Part shown: positions 48,451 through 50,646 of the stretch, one piece after another
Numbering within the stretch: position 1 is the first letter of the stretch
How the letters are laid out: each line of letters begins with the position of its first letter
Assembly: GCA_030622115.1 (NCBI GenBank)
Contig: JAUXGN010000007.1
Location: 4,547 to 68,546 of the forward strand
Direction: 5' to 3'
From: Candidatus Eiseniibacteriota bacterium
GTDB lineage: Bacteria; Joyebacterota; Joyebacteria; Joyebacterales; Joyebacteraceae
Length of the DNA stretch: 64,000 nucleotides
The notes under the pieces: model-generated
Database searches by the model: none
Seen by the model: the letters and a program-made list of their open reading frames with translations, nothing else
What the model was told of the DNA's origin: nothing
Made by a program: the position numbers and the translations under genes

Positions 48451-50646
48451 CTAGCGACTCGCGCGTCCCCCGGCAGAACGAAGAAGCCAGCGAATTATGA
48501 TCCGAAGATCGCTGCCAAGTGACCAGTTCTGAACGTAGTAAGCATCCAGAGCCGTGGCAGCATCATCGCTGGGACCCACTTGAGCTCCCGCGACCTGGGA
48601 GAGCCCAACAACCCCCGGTCGAGCGTCAAACCGGACACGAGACCTGGCATCGCATCTTGCGGCGATGGCCGGAATGAGAGGCTCCGGTCCCACGAGACTC
48701 ATCTCACCCCTGAGCACATTGATGAGCGCCGGGAATCGGTCCAGACCGTGCCGTACCGTGAAGCGTCGAATCGGCGGCGCGGGATTCTCGGGATGAAACA
48801 CAAACATCCGGTATCCCACCTGATCCCGTCCAACACGCGCGCTCCCTGTGAGCGGTCCACGGCCGCGCCTTGCCTTCGAGAGGAGAGCGGATATGCTCAG
48901 CACGGGAGACCACGCTGCCAAGAGAACAAGGGCCCCCGCTATGTCCAGAGCACGCTTGATCCCTGCCTTCGCACCCAGGAGGGCCTCACGCTCGAAAGTC
49001 ACGACCGGCGTGTCGAGAAACTCTTCAACGCGCGCTCGCTGCGTCATGATCCCCGTCAACCCCGAGACCATCCTGACATCCACGGTACTCCGCCTCGCCC
49101 GCAACAGAAAGTCCGAAATCTCCGAGTTTGGCAGCTCCGGATCAGCGAAGATGATCTCCTCGAGCCTCTGTGTCTCAACAAGCTCGATGAGGTTGTCAAG
49201 CGTCCCTATGACGGGAACCGCCGACGGCTCATGTTCACCCAACCCAGGATCCACCAGTCCAGCGAGATCGTAACCAAGATCAGGCCGGGATGCGATGCCT
49301 TCCGCAAGGCGAACTGCCGTCCTCCCTGTTCCAACAATTGCGACACGCGCCAGATCGAAACTCCCTGCCCTTATTTGGCTGTGGAGTTGTCCGAGCCCCG
49401 CCCGCTGAATCGAAACCAGGAACGCTACTAGTACACTGAAGGTCCCGACGAGCACTCGTGAGTAGACAGTAGTGGAAGCAAGGAACGTACTGGCCATCAG
49501 AATGATCGCGGCCACAGCTGAAGCCCGGATCACGCGCAGGAACGTGTCCGTCCAGGGCTCGCGCTCCTGTCTGGCGTCGTAGAGGCCGAAGAAGGCAAAC
49601 GTGATCAGAAACATGATGTTCGAGAAGATCAGGAAGGCCCAGTAGACCTCTACGCCGAAAAGGGGCTTGGTCAAGAAGCCGCGCAGGCTTGAGCGAAGCA
49701 GATACGCGAGTGTGAAGCCGGCATTGACGGCCACCAGATCGGAGATCAGAAGCAGTGACGACAGTAGGATCCGCCGGTGCCTTTTCAGAGCGTAGATGAG
49801 TCCTCCCCACTTCTCATAGAAGTGTGCGAGCGAAAGCAAATGAGCCACTAGTTGCCGGTTGACACCTGGTCTGGCGCTCTCTCGTGCATGACGGTGCATC
49901 ATGACCGACGCTGGAACGTAGTAAACCTTCCAGCCGCCACGCCACATTCTGTAGCACCAATCTACATCCTCGAAGTAGAGGAAGAATCGCTCATCCATCG
50001 GACCTACGTCGGCCAAGGCGTCGCGCCTCACCAACATGCAGGCGCCGAGTATCCAGTCCACCTCGCGCGGCGTCTCGTGGTCGTAGTCGAGCATCAAGTG
50101 CCGATGGATCGTCCGGCTTCGCTTGAACACGGCTCCGAGGAATGTCCTCCTTAGAACGAGAGTCCAGAAGGTGTAGAAAGCGCGGCACGAGTGCTGAAGG
50201 CTCCCATCCGTGTTGAGGAGCTTCGCCCCCGCTATTCCTACGTCACCGTGACCGTCCATGAAATCCACCAGAACATCGAGCGACCTGCTCCCGATCTGGA
50301 TGTCCGGATTCAGCACGAGGACGTAGCGTCCCCTTGCTTCTCTGATGCCTCTGTTGACGGCCCTCGAAAGGCCGACATTGCTCAAGTTCTCAAAGAGCCT
50401 GACCCATGGAAACTCGCGACTGACCAGCTCACCGGTATCATCCGACGACGCATTGTCAACGACAATGGTCTCACTGGCGGCAACATCCTCCGATGCTTCT
50501 ATGGCCTTCAGGCAACGGCCAAGATCATCACGGCTGTTGTACCCGACGATCACGATCGACAGGTCGAGAGATTCTCCGCGGGCGTTCACACTCTCCTCAA
50601 TATCCGATCGAGTCGCAGGCGCCATACGAGCCACATCGCTTCCCAT
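48451..50646 (-). CDS. fusion protein: N-terminal GT2 glycosyltransferase plus C-terminal WbaP-like polyprenyl-phosphate phosphoglycosyltransferase domain
   Basis: Residues ~28-290 form a GT2 domain ([10 protein letters not shown]...[10 protein letters not shown]). Then TM helices, a Rossmann-like segment ([10 protein letters not shown]) and bacterial sugar-transferase motifs ([35 protein letters not shown]). The start overlaps the stop of the next gene by 40 nt or more. Confidence 0.7.
   Translation of the reverse strand: [731 protein letters not shown]

What the first reader, a model, noticed from the sequence alone, without database searches (positions are those of the whole stretch)
48451..50646. 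GT2-phosphoglycosyltransferase fusion whose PGT domain shows an apparent reciprocal charge swap in catalytic-region motifs
A 731-aa protein fuses a complete GT2 domain to a full-length WbaP-like polyprenyl-phosphate sugar-phosphotransferase (TM bundle, Rossmann-like segment, sugar-transferase domain). Aligned by eye to the family consensus ...[23 protein letters not shown]..., this protein reads ...[23 protein letters not shown].... The Glu of the Asp-Glu dyad is Arg and the Arg of the GPRP motif is Glu, and the KFRTM region is also divergent (VFHPE). This could be a compensating charge swap preserving a salt bridge, a change of specificity, or an inactivated domain retained as scaffold. The initiating-plus-second-sugar fusion itself is unusual.
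Basis: seen in the sequence. Interest (0 to 1): 0.55.

Follow-up and report, generated by a model that had tools for sequence, protein, structure and literature searches.

The report
Glycosyltransferase fused to a dead phosphoglycosyltransferase
This 731-residue membrane protein joins an intact sugar-adding enzyme (GT2) to a WbaP-like "first-step" enzyme module that keeps its fold and membrane anchor but has lost essentially all of its catalytic residues, so the apparent charge swap is better explained as decay of a dead active site in a scaffold domain.

Summary
ORF 48451-50646 (-) encodes GT2 + 4-TM bundle + Rossmann DUF + monoPGT-like domain, and HMMER alignments to WbaP and PglC confirm DE->DR and PRP->PEP.

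The charge-swap reading fails. Among 64 close orthologues the nucleophile position is S33/D12/A10, the Glu position is never Glu, and the PRP Arg position is A18/E16/R10/Q9. Each column changed state about 20 times on the tree. About 17 positions that are >=90% conserved in 126 canonical relatives are lost, including K59, KFRTM, DPRxT, R88, DE, R112 and R145. Many lineages deleted the whole segment.

By contrast, the fold is retained (AF2 pLDDT 92; TM 0.81 to PglC). The topology residues are invariant in the homologue set (K564-D713 salt bridge) or kept in the close clade (S-P break), and the GT2 catalytic motifs are invariant.

The family occurs in >=527 species-level MAGs of FCB candidate phyla. 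It sits in a conserved operon: YfhO, a TM-less DPMS-like GT2, the fusion, then a T9SS-sorted beta-propeller. The one orthologue with canonical PGT motifs lacks this operon.

Best reading: a pseudo-PGT chassis kept as a membrane or lipid-carrier scaffold for GT2 chemistry. I found no published description. It is a new variant of a known kind, of moderate interest.

The parts
48451..50646 (-). Whole gene: 731-aa GT2 / Lg-PGT-like fusion protein
   Evidence: ORF; domains; full-length AF2 model with pLDDT 82.4; 120 of 120 top homologues share the architecture.
49861..50565 (-). N-terminal GT2 (GT-A) catalytic domain, res 28-262. It is the most conserved part and is presumed active.
   Evidence: PF00535/PF13641. 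Invariant in 77 homologues: D64 N65 S67 D69, N113 P114 D115, E226 D227 D229, H251, R255. Clade A versus B identity is 0.56 with 40/235 invariant columns. Foldseek matches GT-A enzymes (WrtF TMt 0.65, 6p61 TMt 0.85).
49366..49776 (-). Four-helix transmembrane bundle, res 291-427 (Lg-PGT type)
   Evidence: AF2 helices 291-320, 332-352, 365-389 and 397-427. TIGR03025/03023/03022 align from res ~300. D303 N308 F311 R318 Y335 Y356 R415 are invariant in the 77-homologue alignment; N343 is near-invariant (64/64 clade A, 49/50 clade B). WbaP 8t53 aligns over 446 columns.
48988..49359 (-). Rossmann-like DUF (CoA_binding_3 / PF13727), res 430-553
   Evidence: PF13727 2.7e-15; beta-alpha-beta pattern in the AF2 model; R434 G439 G458 G463 invariant.
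48454..48981 (-). monoPGT-like domain (PF02397), res 556-731. The fold is retained and the catalytic residues are lost (pseudo-PGT).
   Evidence: PF02397 at 91.5 bits. Domain model pLDDT 92.1, PglC 8g1n TMq 0.81 with rmsd 2.6 A. It is the least conserved domain: 0.29 identity between clades A and B, 7/170 invariant columns.
48865..48981 (-). Re-entrant membrane helix region with K564-R565, D568 and S580-P581
   Evidence: Aligns to PglC K7-R8 and S23-P24. K564 and D568 are invariant and R565 near-invariant in the 77-homologue alignment. P581 is 64/64 in clade A and 34/50 in clade B. The roles of these residues are given in PMC6133551.
48787..48801 (-). VFHPE (res 616-620), in place of KFRTM. 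The Lys59 equivalent is V616, followed by the ~30-residue deletion.
   Evidence: The canonical K is 0.99 conserved; the R and M of KFRTM fall in canonical-only columns. Lys59 is catalytically essential (bioRxiv 10.1101/2023.09.19.558431).
48736..48741 (-). D636-R637, the former Asp-Glu catalytic dyad
   Evidence: Alignments. Canonical D and E are both 1.00 conserved. Clade A reads S33/D12/A10 and R29/S8/G5 with no E. Among species-level orthologues D occurs 4 of 82 times and E 0 of 82.
48682..48684 (-). E655, in place of the Arg of the PRP nucleotide-binding motif
   Evidence: Canonical R is 1.00 conserved. Clade A reads A18/E16/R10/Q9 and clade B reads Y44 of 50. PRP is described as a nucleotide-binding motif in PMC10186338.
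50586..51341 (-). Partner gene: 251-aa TM-less GT2 of the polyprenyl-phosphate sugar synthase type. Its 3' end overlaps the start of the fusion gene.
   Evidence: PF00535 5.7e-33. The best PDB hit is P. furiosus DPMS 5mlz at 1e-33, covering the catalytic part only; ArnC and GtrB also match. NCBIfam hits include PgfS, PpgS, AglJ and ArnC. It lies directly upstream of the fusion in 76 of 84 loci at 54-82% identity. Junction sequence.
51296..53809 (-). YfhO-family GT-C glycosyltransferase (837 aa)
   Evidence: PF09586 3e-15; weak PgfM1/PgfM2 hits; second gene upstream of the fusion in 60 of 84 loci.
47056..48408 (-). Beta-propeller (Reg_prop) protein with a T9SS C-terminal sorting domain; PorZ-like only at its C-terminus
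   Evidence: PF07494 3.6e-21. TIGR04183 at 29.1 bits against a cutoff of 23; PorZ model at 83 bits against a cutoff of 260. Directly downstream of the fusion in 53 of 84 loci, with 16 more at contig ends.
53843..55120 (-). Wzx-like (Polysacc_synt) flippase candidate
   Evidence: PF01943 at 0.0012, weak. In the same position upstream of YfhO in the clade A loci examined, including L001, L004-L007, L009 and L011-L014.

Best explanation
The gene encodes an active inverting GT2 glycosyltransferase fused to a complete WbaP-type large-PGT chassis (four TM helices, Rossmann DUF, re-entrant-helix monoPGT domain). The phosphoglycosyl-transferase active site of that chassis is dead.

The PGT-like module can no longer form the covalent phosphosugar-Asp intermediate or bind UDP-sugar in the canonical way. 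It is kept under purifying selection as a non-catalytic module that:
1. anchors the GT2 domain at the cytoplasmic membrane face, probably as a WbaP-like dimer; and
2. probably docks the polyprenyl-phosphate-linked substrate.

It likely also serves as the membrane partner of the co-translated, TM-less DPMS-like GT2 encoded immediately upstream. Together with the YfhO GT-C enzyme and a flippase, the system would build and deliver an undecaprenyl-phosphate-linked sugar or short glycan to a periplasmic acceptor.

The D636-R637 / E655 pattern in this particular protein is one snapshot of a fast-drifting ex-active site, not a functional charge swap.

Shown: loss of catalytic residues, retention of the fold and topology residues, GT2 conservation, and operon conservation. 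Inferred: catalytic inactivity, the scaffold or lipid-docking role, and the partnership with the small GT2.
For: Catalytic positions are unconstrained.
- Clade A (64 sequences, >=54% identity) has S33/D12/A10/T3/H3 at the nucleophile, no Glu at the dyad's second position, and A18/E16/R10/Q9 at the PRP Arg.
- These columns show 22, 22 and 18 state changes on the tree, and their entropies are above the domain median.

The canonical signature is lost in both clades. In a three-way alignment with 126 canonical relatives, these >=0.9-conserved positions are gone: K59, the R and M of KFRTM, D-P-R-x-T, G, R88, S, D93, E94, Q, R112, the Q of GLxQV, R145 and a C-terminal T.

The loss is specific to this family. 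123 of the 149 nearest superfamily representatives have an exact DE+PRP.

In 82 species-level orthologues many lineages have deleted the whole KFRTM->DE segment. D is kept in 4, E in 0 and K59 in 0.

Literature roles:
- Asp is the covalent nucleophile and Mg ligand, and Lys59 is essential (bioRxiv 10.1101/2023.09.19.558431).
- PRP binds the nucleotide (PMC10186338).
- Arg88 and Arg145 bind UndP (PMC10519829).

Fold and topology are preserved.
- The domain model has pLDDT 92.1. PglC matches with TMq 0.81 and rmsd 2.6 A, and WbaP with 0.75.
- The full chassis aligns to WbaP 8t53 over 446 columns.
- K564 and D713 (PglC K7-D169 salt bridge), D568, G647, G653 and P677-G678 are invariant, and R565 and P654 are >=90% conserved, in the 77-homologue alignment. 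P581 is 64/64 in clade A but 34/50 in clade B. See also and PMC6133551.

The GT2 catalytic motifs are invariant, and GT2 is the most conserved domain.

The operon YfhO / small GT2 / fusion / T9SS propeller is conserved across phyla (76, 60 and 53 of 84 loci).

The single orthologue with complete canonical PGT motifs (L042) lacks that operon.

The small GT2 matches only the catalytic part of DPMS and has no TM segment. Its gene overlaps the fusion's start.
Against: - Everything rests on sequence and predicted structure. No activity was measured.
- This particular protein still has the Asp (D636) and an Arg next to the R88 position (R632, 59 of 64 in clade A).
- Each clade has its own conserved residues around the old site (A: R627 R628 F629 R632 H633 W720; B: D634 N637 Y655 W683 R684). 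These could mean a new ligand site or even new chemistry, not a purely passive scaffold.
- The cluster encodes PglF-, PglE- and VimA-like enzymes that normally feed a PGT. No other monoPGT or WecA-type PGT lies in the 64-kb window or within 10 kb in 84 loci, so a PGT activity is 'missing' locally.
- Alignment in the most divergent lineages is gap-rich, so individual column assignments there are uncertain.
- The physical partnership with the small GT2 is inferred from gene order alone.
Confidence: 0.65

Rival explanations
1. Reciprocal charge swap. E94->R and R112->E compensate each other (a salt bridge or an inverted electrostatic arrangement), and the domain remains an active phosphoglycosyl transferase.
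For: Both substitutions are real. In clade A, R637 and an acidic 655 co-occur more often than independence predicts (13/29 against 4/35, Fisher p=0.004). Both residues line the same active-site region in PglC, according to the roles given in PMC10186338 and bioRxiv 10.1101/2023.09.19.558431. D636 is retained in this protein.
Against: - The association is not obligate: R without an acid in 16 cases and an acid without R in 4. It rests on about 5 independent gains and is not corrected for phylogeny.
- The Asp nucleophile itself is absent in 52 of 64 close orthologues and 78 of 82 species-level orthologues.
- This protein also lacks K59, KFRTM, DPRxT and R145, so restoring one ion pair could not restore catalysis.
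- The R637-E655 distance could not be measured because model coordinates are not exposed.
Confidence: 0.03
2. Neofunctionalised enzyme. The PGT-like domain is still catalytic but uses different residues or a different reaction, for example acting on Und-P- or Und-PP-sugar, on another nucleotide sugar, or through a phosphatase- or pyrophosphatase-like step.
For: - There are clade-specific, highly conserved residues at the old site: R627 R628 R632 H633 in clade A, and D634 N637 Y655 W683 R684 in clade B.
- No other PGT is present in the cluster although PglF/PglE/VimA-like genes are.
- In clade B an invariant Asp (49 of 50) sits two residues upstream of the canonical Asp and could be structurally equivalent if the local alignment shifts.
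Against: - No candidate catalytic residue in the site is shared between clades A and B, or across the 82 species-level orthologues. The residues conserved family-wide are those that are structural in canonical PGTs.
- Many lineages deleted the segment outright while keeping the operon.
- The PGT-like domain is the least conserved of the four.
Confidence: 0.17
3. Neutral relic. The C-terminal domain is a decaying remnant with no function, on its way to being lost.
For: It has the lowest conservation of all domains, and the ex-active site has many deletions.
Against: - It is retained full-length, without frameshifts, in >=527 species genomes spanning several phyla.
- The fold-defining and topology residues are invariant or nearly so.
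- The predicted fold is confident and PglC-like.
- A relic would not preserve the K564-D713 staple (invariant) or the S-P helix break (P581 64/64 in clade A, 34/50 in clade B) across this depth.
Confidence: 0.08

Closest known systems
Salmonella enterica WbaP (large monotopic PGT, Lg-PGT; PDB 8t53, 30us)
   Same: The chassis has the same order: a four-TM bundle, a PF13727 Rossmann DUF, and a re-entrant-helix PF02397 domain. It is the top sequence and structure match. K-R, S-P, G-x-MS-x-VGP-x-P and PG-x-TG, along with the C-terminal D/Y/W/D residues, are kept.
   Different: The Asp-Glu dyad, PRP Arg, KFRTM, DPRxT and the R145 equivalent are not conserved. The helix-turn-helix (WbaP 337-369) is deleted. 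A GT2 domain of about 290 residues is fused at the N-terminus. The protein scores below the TIGR03025, TIGR03022 and TIGR03023 cutoffs.
Campylobacter PglC (small monoPGT; PDB 8g1n, 8e37, 5W7L)
   Same: The core fold matches (TMq 0.81, rmsd 2.6 A over 180 columns). The equivalents of the K7-D169 salt bridge, R8 and S23-P24 are kept (PMC6133551).
   Different: K59->V, D93 is variable in orthologues, E94->R, R112->E and R145->A. The mobile-loop region is shortened by about 13 residues.
Bifunctional monoPGTs (Bi-PGT class: GT or acetyltransferase fused to a monoPGT core)
   Same: A second catalytic domain, here GT2, is fused to a PF02397 domain. The class is described in PMC11626204 and PMC10312794. 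Near-canonical GT2 + Lg-PGT fusions exist: L042 has the complete set of motifs, and P0206 has LEDLP and PRP.
   Different: Here the PGT half lacks its catalytic residues, so the protein is probably monofunctional. The family is tied to a YfhO / DPMS-like GT2 operon that the canonical fusion L042 lacks.
Three-component Und-P-sugar systems: CsbB/GtrB-type GT2 + flippase + YfhO-type GT-C (B. subtilis CsbB-YfhO; S. mutans PgfS-PgfM1)
   Same: The operon contains a DPMS/GtrB/PgfS-like GT2, a YfhO-family GT-C and a flippase candidate. The system logic is from established knowledge of these families.
   Different: The small GT2 lacks the C-terminal TM helices of GtrB, CsbB and DPMS (251 aa; it matches only residues 22-247 of the 374-aa DPMS). 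An extra GT2 / pseudo-PGT membrane protein is inserted as an obligate neighbour.
TM-less polyprenyl-phosphate GTs that need a separate membrane partner (human DPM1 with DPM3; mycobacterial Ppm1 catalytic domain with Ppm2). From my own knowledge, not tested here.
   Same: A soluble DPMS-type catalytic subunit is encoded next to, and translationally overlapping, a membrane protein that could tether it and present the lipid phosphate.
   Different: The candidate partner here is a WbaP-derived chassis with its own GT2 domain. No interaction data exist.

Membership tests
Monotopic PGT superfamily (PF02397 Bac_transf) | Profile match above the Pfam gathering score | tested here: met
   91.5 bits against a cutoff of 27, E 6.1e-26, res 564-719.
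Monotopic PGT superfamily (PF02397 Bac_transf) | Core fold with a re-entrant membrane helix (K-R N-terminal motif, S/BCAA-P helix break, K7-D169 staple) | tested here: met
   Domain model pLDDT 92.1 with PglC TMq 0.81. K564, R565, S580-P581 and D713 are present. K564 and D713 are invariant and R565 >=90% in the homologue alignment; P581 is 64/64 in clade A and 34/50 in clade B.
Monotopic PGT superfamily (PF02397 Bac_transf) | Asp-Glu catalytic dyad (Asp is the covalent nucleophile) | tested here: not met
   D636-R637 in this protein. Clade A has S33/D12/A10 and no Glu. Canonical relatives have D 1.00 and E 1.00.
Monotopic PGT superfamily (PF02397 Bac_transf) | PRP nucleotide-binding motif | tested here: not met
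   PEP here. Orthologues have A/E/R/Q/S/Y. Canonical R is 1.00 conserved.
Monotopic PGT superfamily (PF02397 Bac_transf) | Catalytically essential Lys59 (KFRTM) and the DPRxT segment | tested here: not met
   V616; KFRTM and DPRxT are deleted or replaced. The canonical K is 0.99, R 1.00 and D-P-R-x-T 0.87-0.98 conserved.
Monotopic PGT superfamily (PF02397 Bac_transf) | UndP-binding arginines (PglC Arg88, Arg145) | tested here: inconclusive
   R145 is A688 and is lost. For R88, HMMER aligns it to the conserved R632 while MAFFT aligns it to the variable V631.
Monotopic PGT superfamily (PF02397 Bac_transf) | Phosphosugar transfer from UDP-sugar to Und-P (enzymatic activity) | not testable with these tools
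   Needs a UMP-release or radiolabel assay, or complementation.
Large PGT (Lg-PGT, WbaP/WcaJ type) | N-terminal four-TM bundle plus a PF13727 DUF preceding the PGT core | tested here: met
   Four helices at 291-427; PF13727 at 353-527; WbaP 8t53 aligned over 446 columns.
Large PGT (Lg-PGT, WbaP/WcaJ type) | Score above the NCBIfam cutoffs for EPS_sugtrans, WcaJ or WbaP | tested here: not met
   TIGR03025 218.6 against 295.6; TIGR03023 194.3 against 410.8; TIGR03022 153.3 against 403.
Bifunctional PGT (Bi-PGT) | A second catalytic domain fused to a monoPGT domain, with both active | tested here: inconclusive
   The architecture is met (GT2 + PF02397). Bifunctionality is doubtful because the PGT catalytic residues are lost. 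Activity was not measured.
GT2 (GT-A fold inverting glycosyltransferases, WbbL/rhamnosyltransferase-like) | Profile match, GT-A fold, a DxD-type metal/nucleotide motif and an acidic catalytic-base motif | tested here: met
   PF00535 at 67.5 bits against 23.3 and PF13641 at 64.7 against 27. D64/D69, N113-P-D115 and E226-D227-x-D229 are invariant. GT-A structural matches. TIGR01556 (rhamnosyltransferase) scores only 56 against 200, so donor and acceptor are unassigned.

The most novel reading that the evidence does not exclude
In FCB-superphylum candidate phyla the WbaP-type chassis may have been exapted as a non-catalytic polyprenyl-phosphate(-sugar) receptor that organises a PGT-independent assembly line.

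The proposed steps are:
1. The TM-less DPMS-like GT2 makes Und-P-sugar on the chassis.
2. The fused GT2 elongates it on the monophosphate carrier, analogous to archaeal AglJ followed by AglG/I/E on dolichyl phosphate.
3. A flippase moves the product across the membrane.
4. YfhO delivers it to a periplasmic acceptor.

The acceptor might be linked to T9SS cargo anchoring, given the adjacent T9SS-sorted propeller and the VimA-like aminoacyl-sugar genes.
Probability: 0.15. Interest if true: 0.8.

Novelty: new variant of a known kind. Interest (0 to 1): 0.5.

Why it matters
Monotopic PGTs are treated as the committed, initiating enzymes of bacterial glycoconjugate pathways, and PF02397 hits are routinely annotated as "sugar transferase". 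The Asp-Glu dyad is regarded as a hallmark of the superfamily.

A large, phylogenetically broad family in which the whole WbaP chassis is conserved but the active site is dead has three consequences:
- Automatic annotation and pathway reconstruction will mis-assign the initiating step in these phyla.
- The chassis (TM bundle, DUF, re-entrant helix domain) has a selectable function apart from catalysis, such as membrane positioning, dimerisation or lipid-carrier binding. That bears on the open question of what the accessory domains of Lg-PGTs do.
- It provides a natural "catalysis-off" variant for dissecting polyprenyl-phosphate recognition.

The tight operon with a TM-less DPMS-like GT2, YfhO and a T9SS-sorted protein gives a concrete, testable system in uncultured FCB lineages.

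Tried and rejected
- I looked for the dyad or PRP elsewhere in the protein and for a second monoPGT in the window, using tblastn and six-frame motif scans. There was none.
- I looked for a WecA/MraY-type PGT by Pfam-scanning the long (>=230-aa) candidate genes I selected across the window. There was none.
- The look-up of encoding contigs for the exact window protein returned nothing on record, so I used orthologues instead.
- O'Toole 2021 (PMC7848588), Ray 2018 (PMC6202225) and Lukose 2015 (PMC5483379) are not held. Residue roles therefore come from later open papers.
- A WbaP residue-number literature search returned only irrelevant hits.
- A search for 'phosphoglycosyl transferase' plus 'pseudoenzyme' returned 0 papers. 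That is absence in this library only.
- My first neighbour analysis by tblastn was confounded by GT2 cross-hits that inflated the fusion range. I redid it at ORF level.
- My motif regex on long relatives reported the first of two tandem PF02397 domains. Those 'degenerate' cases are not comparable and were not used as evidence.
- Model coordinates are not exposed, so the R637-E655 distance could not be measured.
- PorZ orthology of the neighbour was rejected: only the C-terminal ~130 residues match, at 64-83 bits against a cutoff of 260.

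
Full report
**Observation**

Pfam finds three domains:
- a GT2 domain (PF00535 1.8e-18; PF13641 res 29-257);
- the Lg-PGT accessory domain PF13727 (res 353-527);
- PF02397 Bac_transf (res 564-719, 91.5 bits against a gathering score of 27).

The best PDB sequence matches are WbaP (E about 5e-23) and PglC (about 1e-15).

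In the HMMER alignments the query '[22 protein letters not shown]' lies in register with WbaP '[22 protein letters not shown]' and with PglC 8g1n. So Glu->Arg in the dyad and Arg->Glu in PRP are genuine. There is no alternative dyad or PRP, and no second monoPGT, anywhere in the 64-kb window.

- About 30 residues are missing relative to WbaP (query 615->625 against WbaP 330->371), which removes KFRTM...DPRxT.
- The PglC Lys59 equivalent is V616.
- The UndP-binding Arg145 equivalent is A688.

**What the residues do**

These roles come from the literature:
- MonoPGTs use a ping-pong mechanism in which the dyad Asp attacks the beta-phosphate to form a covalent phosphosugar-Asp intermediate and also ligates Mg2+. 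Lys59 is catalytically essential (bioRxiv 10.1101/2023.09.19.558431).
- PRP is described as the conserved nucleotide-binding motif (PMC10186338).
- Arg88, Arg145 and Lys179 mediate UndP binding (PMC10519829).
- K7-R8, S23-P24 and the K7-D169 salt bridge determine the re-entrant helix topology and staple it to the globular domain (PMC6133551).

**Orthologue survey**

A search of 5.8 billion clustered proteins gave 1002 hits. All of the top 120 share the GT2 + TM + PF13727 + PF02397 architecture, and the source names point to Eisenbacteria and Latescibacterota.

I aligned 114 full-length sequences: clade A is 64 sequences at >=54% identity and clade B is 50 at 39-45%.

| Position in query | PglC equivalent | Clade A residues |
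|---|---|---|
| 636 | Asp93 nucleophile | S33 D12 A10 T3 H3 N1 |
| 637 | Glu94 | R29 S8 G5 W5 L4 V4, never Glu |
| 655 | Arg112 of PRP | A18 E16 R10 Q9 S5 |

Clade B has an extra deletion and reads S-D-[LI]-V-N-L-P ... G-P-Y-P.

On an NJ tree built without these columns, they change state 22, 22 and 18 times. Their entropies are above the domain median.

R637 with an acidic 655 occurs in 13 of 29 cases against 4 of 35 without R637 (Fisher p=0.004). But R occurs without an acid 16 times, an acid occurs without R 4 times, the acidic state arose only about 5 times, and the test ignores phylogeny.

**Comparison with canonical PGTs**

An exhaustive phmmer search of 1.84 billion representatives with the PGT-like domain found 36,076 relatives, but only 7 at E<=1e-30. 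The family is therefore a small, separated clade. Of the 149 nearest representatives, 123 carry an exact DE and PRP.

I then made a three-way alignment of 126 canonical sequences, 64 clade A and 49 clade B.

- Lost in both clades, although >=0.9 conserved in canonical enzymes: K59, the R and M of KFRTM, D-P-R-x-T, a Gly, R88, a Ser, D93, E94, a Gln, R112, the Gln of GLxQV, R145 and a C-terminal Thr.
- Kept: K564 R565 D568 P581 R604 G606 P639 V644 G647 S650 V652 G653 P654 P656 R672 P677 G678 G681 D701 Y704 W708 D713. These are the fold and topology residues, including the K7-D169 staple.

Across 82 species-level orthologues many lineages have deleted the whole KFRTM->DE segment. The Asp survives in 4, Glu in 0 and Lys59 in 0.

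**Structure**

- The full-length AF2 model has mean pLDDT 82.4. It shows four TM helices (291-427), a Rossmann domain and a long N-terminal helix in the PGT-like domain.
- Its best PDB match is WbaP 8t53 (E 1.3e-17, 446 aligned columns). The N-terminal domain matches GT-A enzymes.
- Modelled alone, the PGT-like domain reaches pLDDT 92.1 and pTM 0.87. It superposes on PglC with TMq 0.81 and rmsd 2.6 A over 180 columns, and on WbaP with TMq 0.75. Nothing else is significant.

So the fold is intact while the chemistry is gone.

**The GT2 half**

These residues are invariant in 77 homologues: D64 N65 S67 D69, N90, G92, N98, N113 P114 D115, E226 D227 D229 W230 C231 R233, H251 and R255.

| Domain | Identity, clade A vs B | Invariant columns |
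|---|---|---|
| GT2 | 0.56 | 40/235 |
| TM bundle | 0.33 | 8/137 |
| Rossmann DUF | 0.35 | 4/124 |
| PGT-like | 0.29 | 7/170 |

Selection is therefore strongest on the GT2 catalytic domain and weakest on the PGT-like domain, and within that domain it acts on structural positions.

**Genomic context**

A pattern scan of GTDB species genomes found at least 527 encoding loci. All are MAGs: Eisenbacteria/Eiseniibacteriota, Krumholzibacteriota, Latescibacterota, Gemmatimonadota, Fibrobacteraceae and UBP1.

ORF-level synteny in 84 loci:
- A GT2 of about 250 aa lies directly upstream in 76 loci, at 54-82% identity. That is better conserved than the fusion itself.
- YfhO precedes it in 60 loci.
- A Reg_prop beta-propeller with a T9SS sorting domain lies directly downstream in 53 loci, with 16 more at contig ends.

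The small GT2 matches the catalytic part of P. furiosus DPMS (1e-33, residues 22-247 of 374), as well as ArnC, GtrB, PgfS, PpgS and AglJ. It has no TM segment. In clade A its 3' end overlaps the fusion's start by 49-61 nt.

No locus has a separate canonical monoPGT within 10 kb. The window also lacks a WecA/MraY-type enzyme.

The only orthologue with complete canonical PGT motifs is L042 from Desulfatiglandales (KFRTM, DARVT, DEIP, GPRP). It lacks the small GT2, YfhO and propeller context. Loss of the PGT site therefore correlates with membership of this operon.

**Interpretation**

The best-supported reading is that the C-terminal WbaP-like chassis is a pseudo-PGT. It cannot perform the covalent phosphosugar transfer, but it is retained for three likely roles:
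- as a membrane anchor and probable dimerisation module;
- as a probable dock for the polyprenyl-phosphate-linked substrate of the fused GT2;
- possibly as the membrane partner of the TM-less DPMS-like GT2.

The steps that are shown are the loss of catalytic residues, retention of the fold and topology residues, GT2 conservation and the conserved operon. The steps that are inferred are inactivity, lipid docking and the partnership.

I give about 0.65 to this reading overall. Inactivity by the canonical mechanism is more likely than that, and the specific scaffold role less so.

The rivals:
- A functional charge swap: about 0.03.
- A neofunctionalised enzyme: about 0.17. It is supported by the clade-specific conserved residues around the old site and by the locally 'missing' PGT.
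- A neutral relic: about 0.08. It is contradicted by retention across phyla.

**Comparison with the known, and novelty**

The protein works like, and derives from, Lg-PGTs of the WbaP type, and its architecture is that of a Bi-PGT. However, it fails the defining catalytic features of monoPGTs (dyad, PRP, Lys59). It also scores below the NCBIfam cutoffs for EPS_sugtrans, WcaJ and WbaP.

GT-PGT fusions are a known class (PMC11626204, PMC10312794). I found no report of a catalytically dead PGT domain: 0 papers combine 'phosphoglycosyl transferase' with 'pseudoenzyme' in the library. The key 2021 network paper could not be read.

I therefore rate it a new variant of a known kind, with moderate interest (0.5). 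The headline charge swap is not a real functional feature. The underlying family and its operon are a worthwhile and, as far as I can tell, undescribed finding.

Noticed in passing
window 47056-53809 (also L001, L003, L004 and 80 further loci): A conserved same-strand gene block spans several FCB-group candidate phyla: YfhO GT-C, a TM-less DPMS-like GT2, the GT2/pseudo-PGT fusion, and a T9SS-sorted beta-propeller. The small GT2 is better conserved (54-82%) than the fusion (33-62%).
   Followed up: yes
window 43375-46980: A FemAB-family gene (TIGR03019-like, the family that P. gingivalis VimA matches, PMC7468200) sits next to a PseC/PglE-like aminotransferase and a PglF/PseB-like 4,6-dehydratase. 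This suggests an aminoacylated 4-amino-4,6-dideoxy-HexNAc. With the adjacent T9SS-sorted protein, it recalls the Wbp/Vim 'linking sugar' that anchors T9SS cargo.
   Followed up: partly
window 50586-50646: The 3' end of the small GT2 gene overlaps the annotated start of the fusion gene by 61 nt (49-61 nt in clade A orthologues; a 2-nt gap in L003). Alternative starts are GTG at codon 5 and ATG at codon 8. An in-frame GTG at codon 20 overlaps the upstream TGA (GTGTGA), with GAGGAG just upstream. This suggests translational coupling.
   Followed up: partly
window 47056-48408; L003 12175-14673: The beta-propeller neighbour matches the PorZ model only over its C-terminal ~130 residues (64-83 bits against a cutoff of 260) but passes the T9SS type A sorting-domain model. 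In clade B it is about 830 aa (two propellers?), close to PorZ in size. Orthology to PorZ is not established.
   Followed up: partly
L042 10001-12157 (Desulfatiglandales MAG, CAXXLN010000004.1): This is the only orthologue (35% identity) with a fully canonical PGT domain (KFRTM, DARVT, DEIP, GPRP). It lacks the YfhO / small GT2 / propeller context and is probably a genuine bifunctional GT2-LgPGT representing the ancestral state.
   Followed up: partly
P0130, P0131, P0137, P0139, P0140, P0143, P0182, P0200 (relatives): These long relatives (620-880 aa) contain two PF02397 stretches, some also with two PF13727 stretches or a WecG domain. My motif scan shows non-canonical dyad or PRP residues in the first copy. 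They may be tandem PGT proteins with one degenerate copy.
   Followed up: no
P0206 (780 aa) and P0112 (716 aa): These are GT2 + Lg-PGT fusions with near-canonical motifs but an altered dyad: P0206 has LEDLP with PRP, and P0112 has KFRT...LDLLP...GPRP. They may be intermediates between active and dead forms.
   Followed up: no
window 55151-59484: Two alkaline-phosphatase-superfamily (Phosphodiest/Sulfatase) proteins flank a GT9 heptosyltransferase-like gene inside the glycan cluster. The arrangement is conserved in the clade A loci L001 and L004.
   Followed up: no
window 42117-43364: A 415-aa ORF has no Pfam or NCBIfam hit. The gene in the equivalent position in L001 carries PF09594 (GT87, a GT-C family), so this is probably a second GT-C or polymerase-like membrane protein.
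   Followed up: no
window 33099-39603: A bacterial microcompartment locus lies directly downstream of the glycan cluster: PTAC (38938-39603), two BMC shell genes (38277-38573 and 38637-38933), EutN (37876-38226), an aldehyde dehydrogenase (36426-37856), a PduS-like flavoprotein (35093-36424) and a class II aldolase (33099-34007). The same adjacency (PTAC, BMC) is seen in L001 and L004.
   Followed up: partly
window 291-427 of the fusion protein (49366-49776): Polar or charged residues inside the TM bundle are conserved across both clades: D303, N308, R318, Y335, Y356 and R415 are invariant and N343 is near-invariant (49/50 in clade B). This suggests the bundle has a function beyond anchoring. 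Whether they are general Lg-PGT features was not checked.
   Followed up: no
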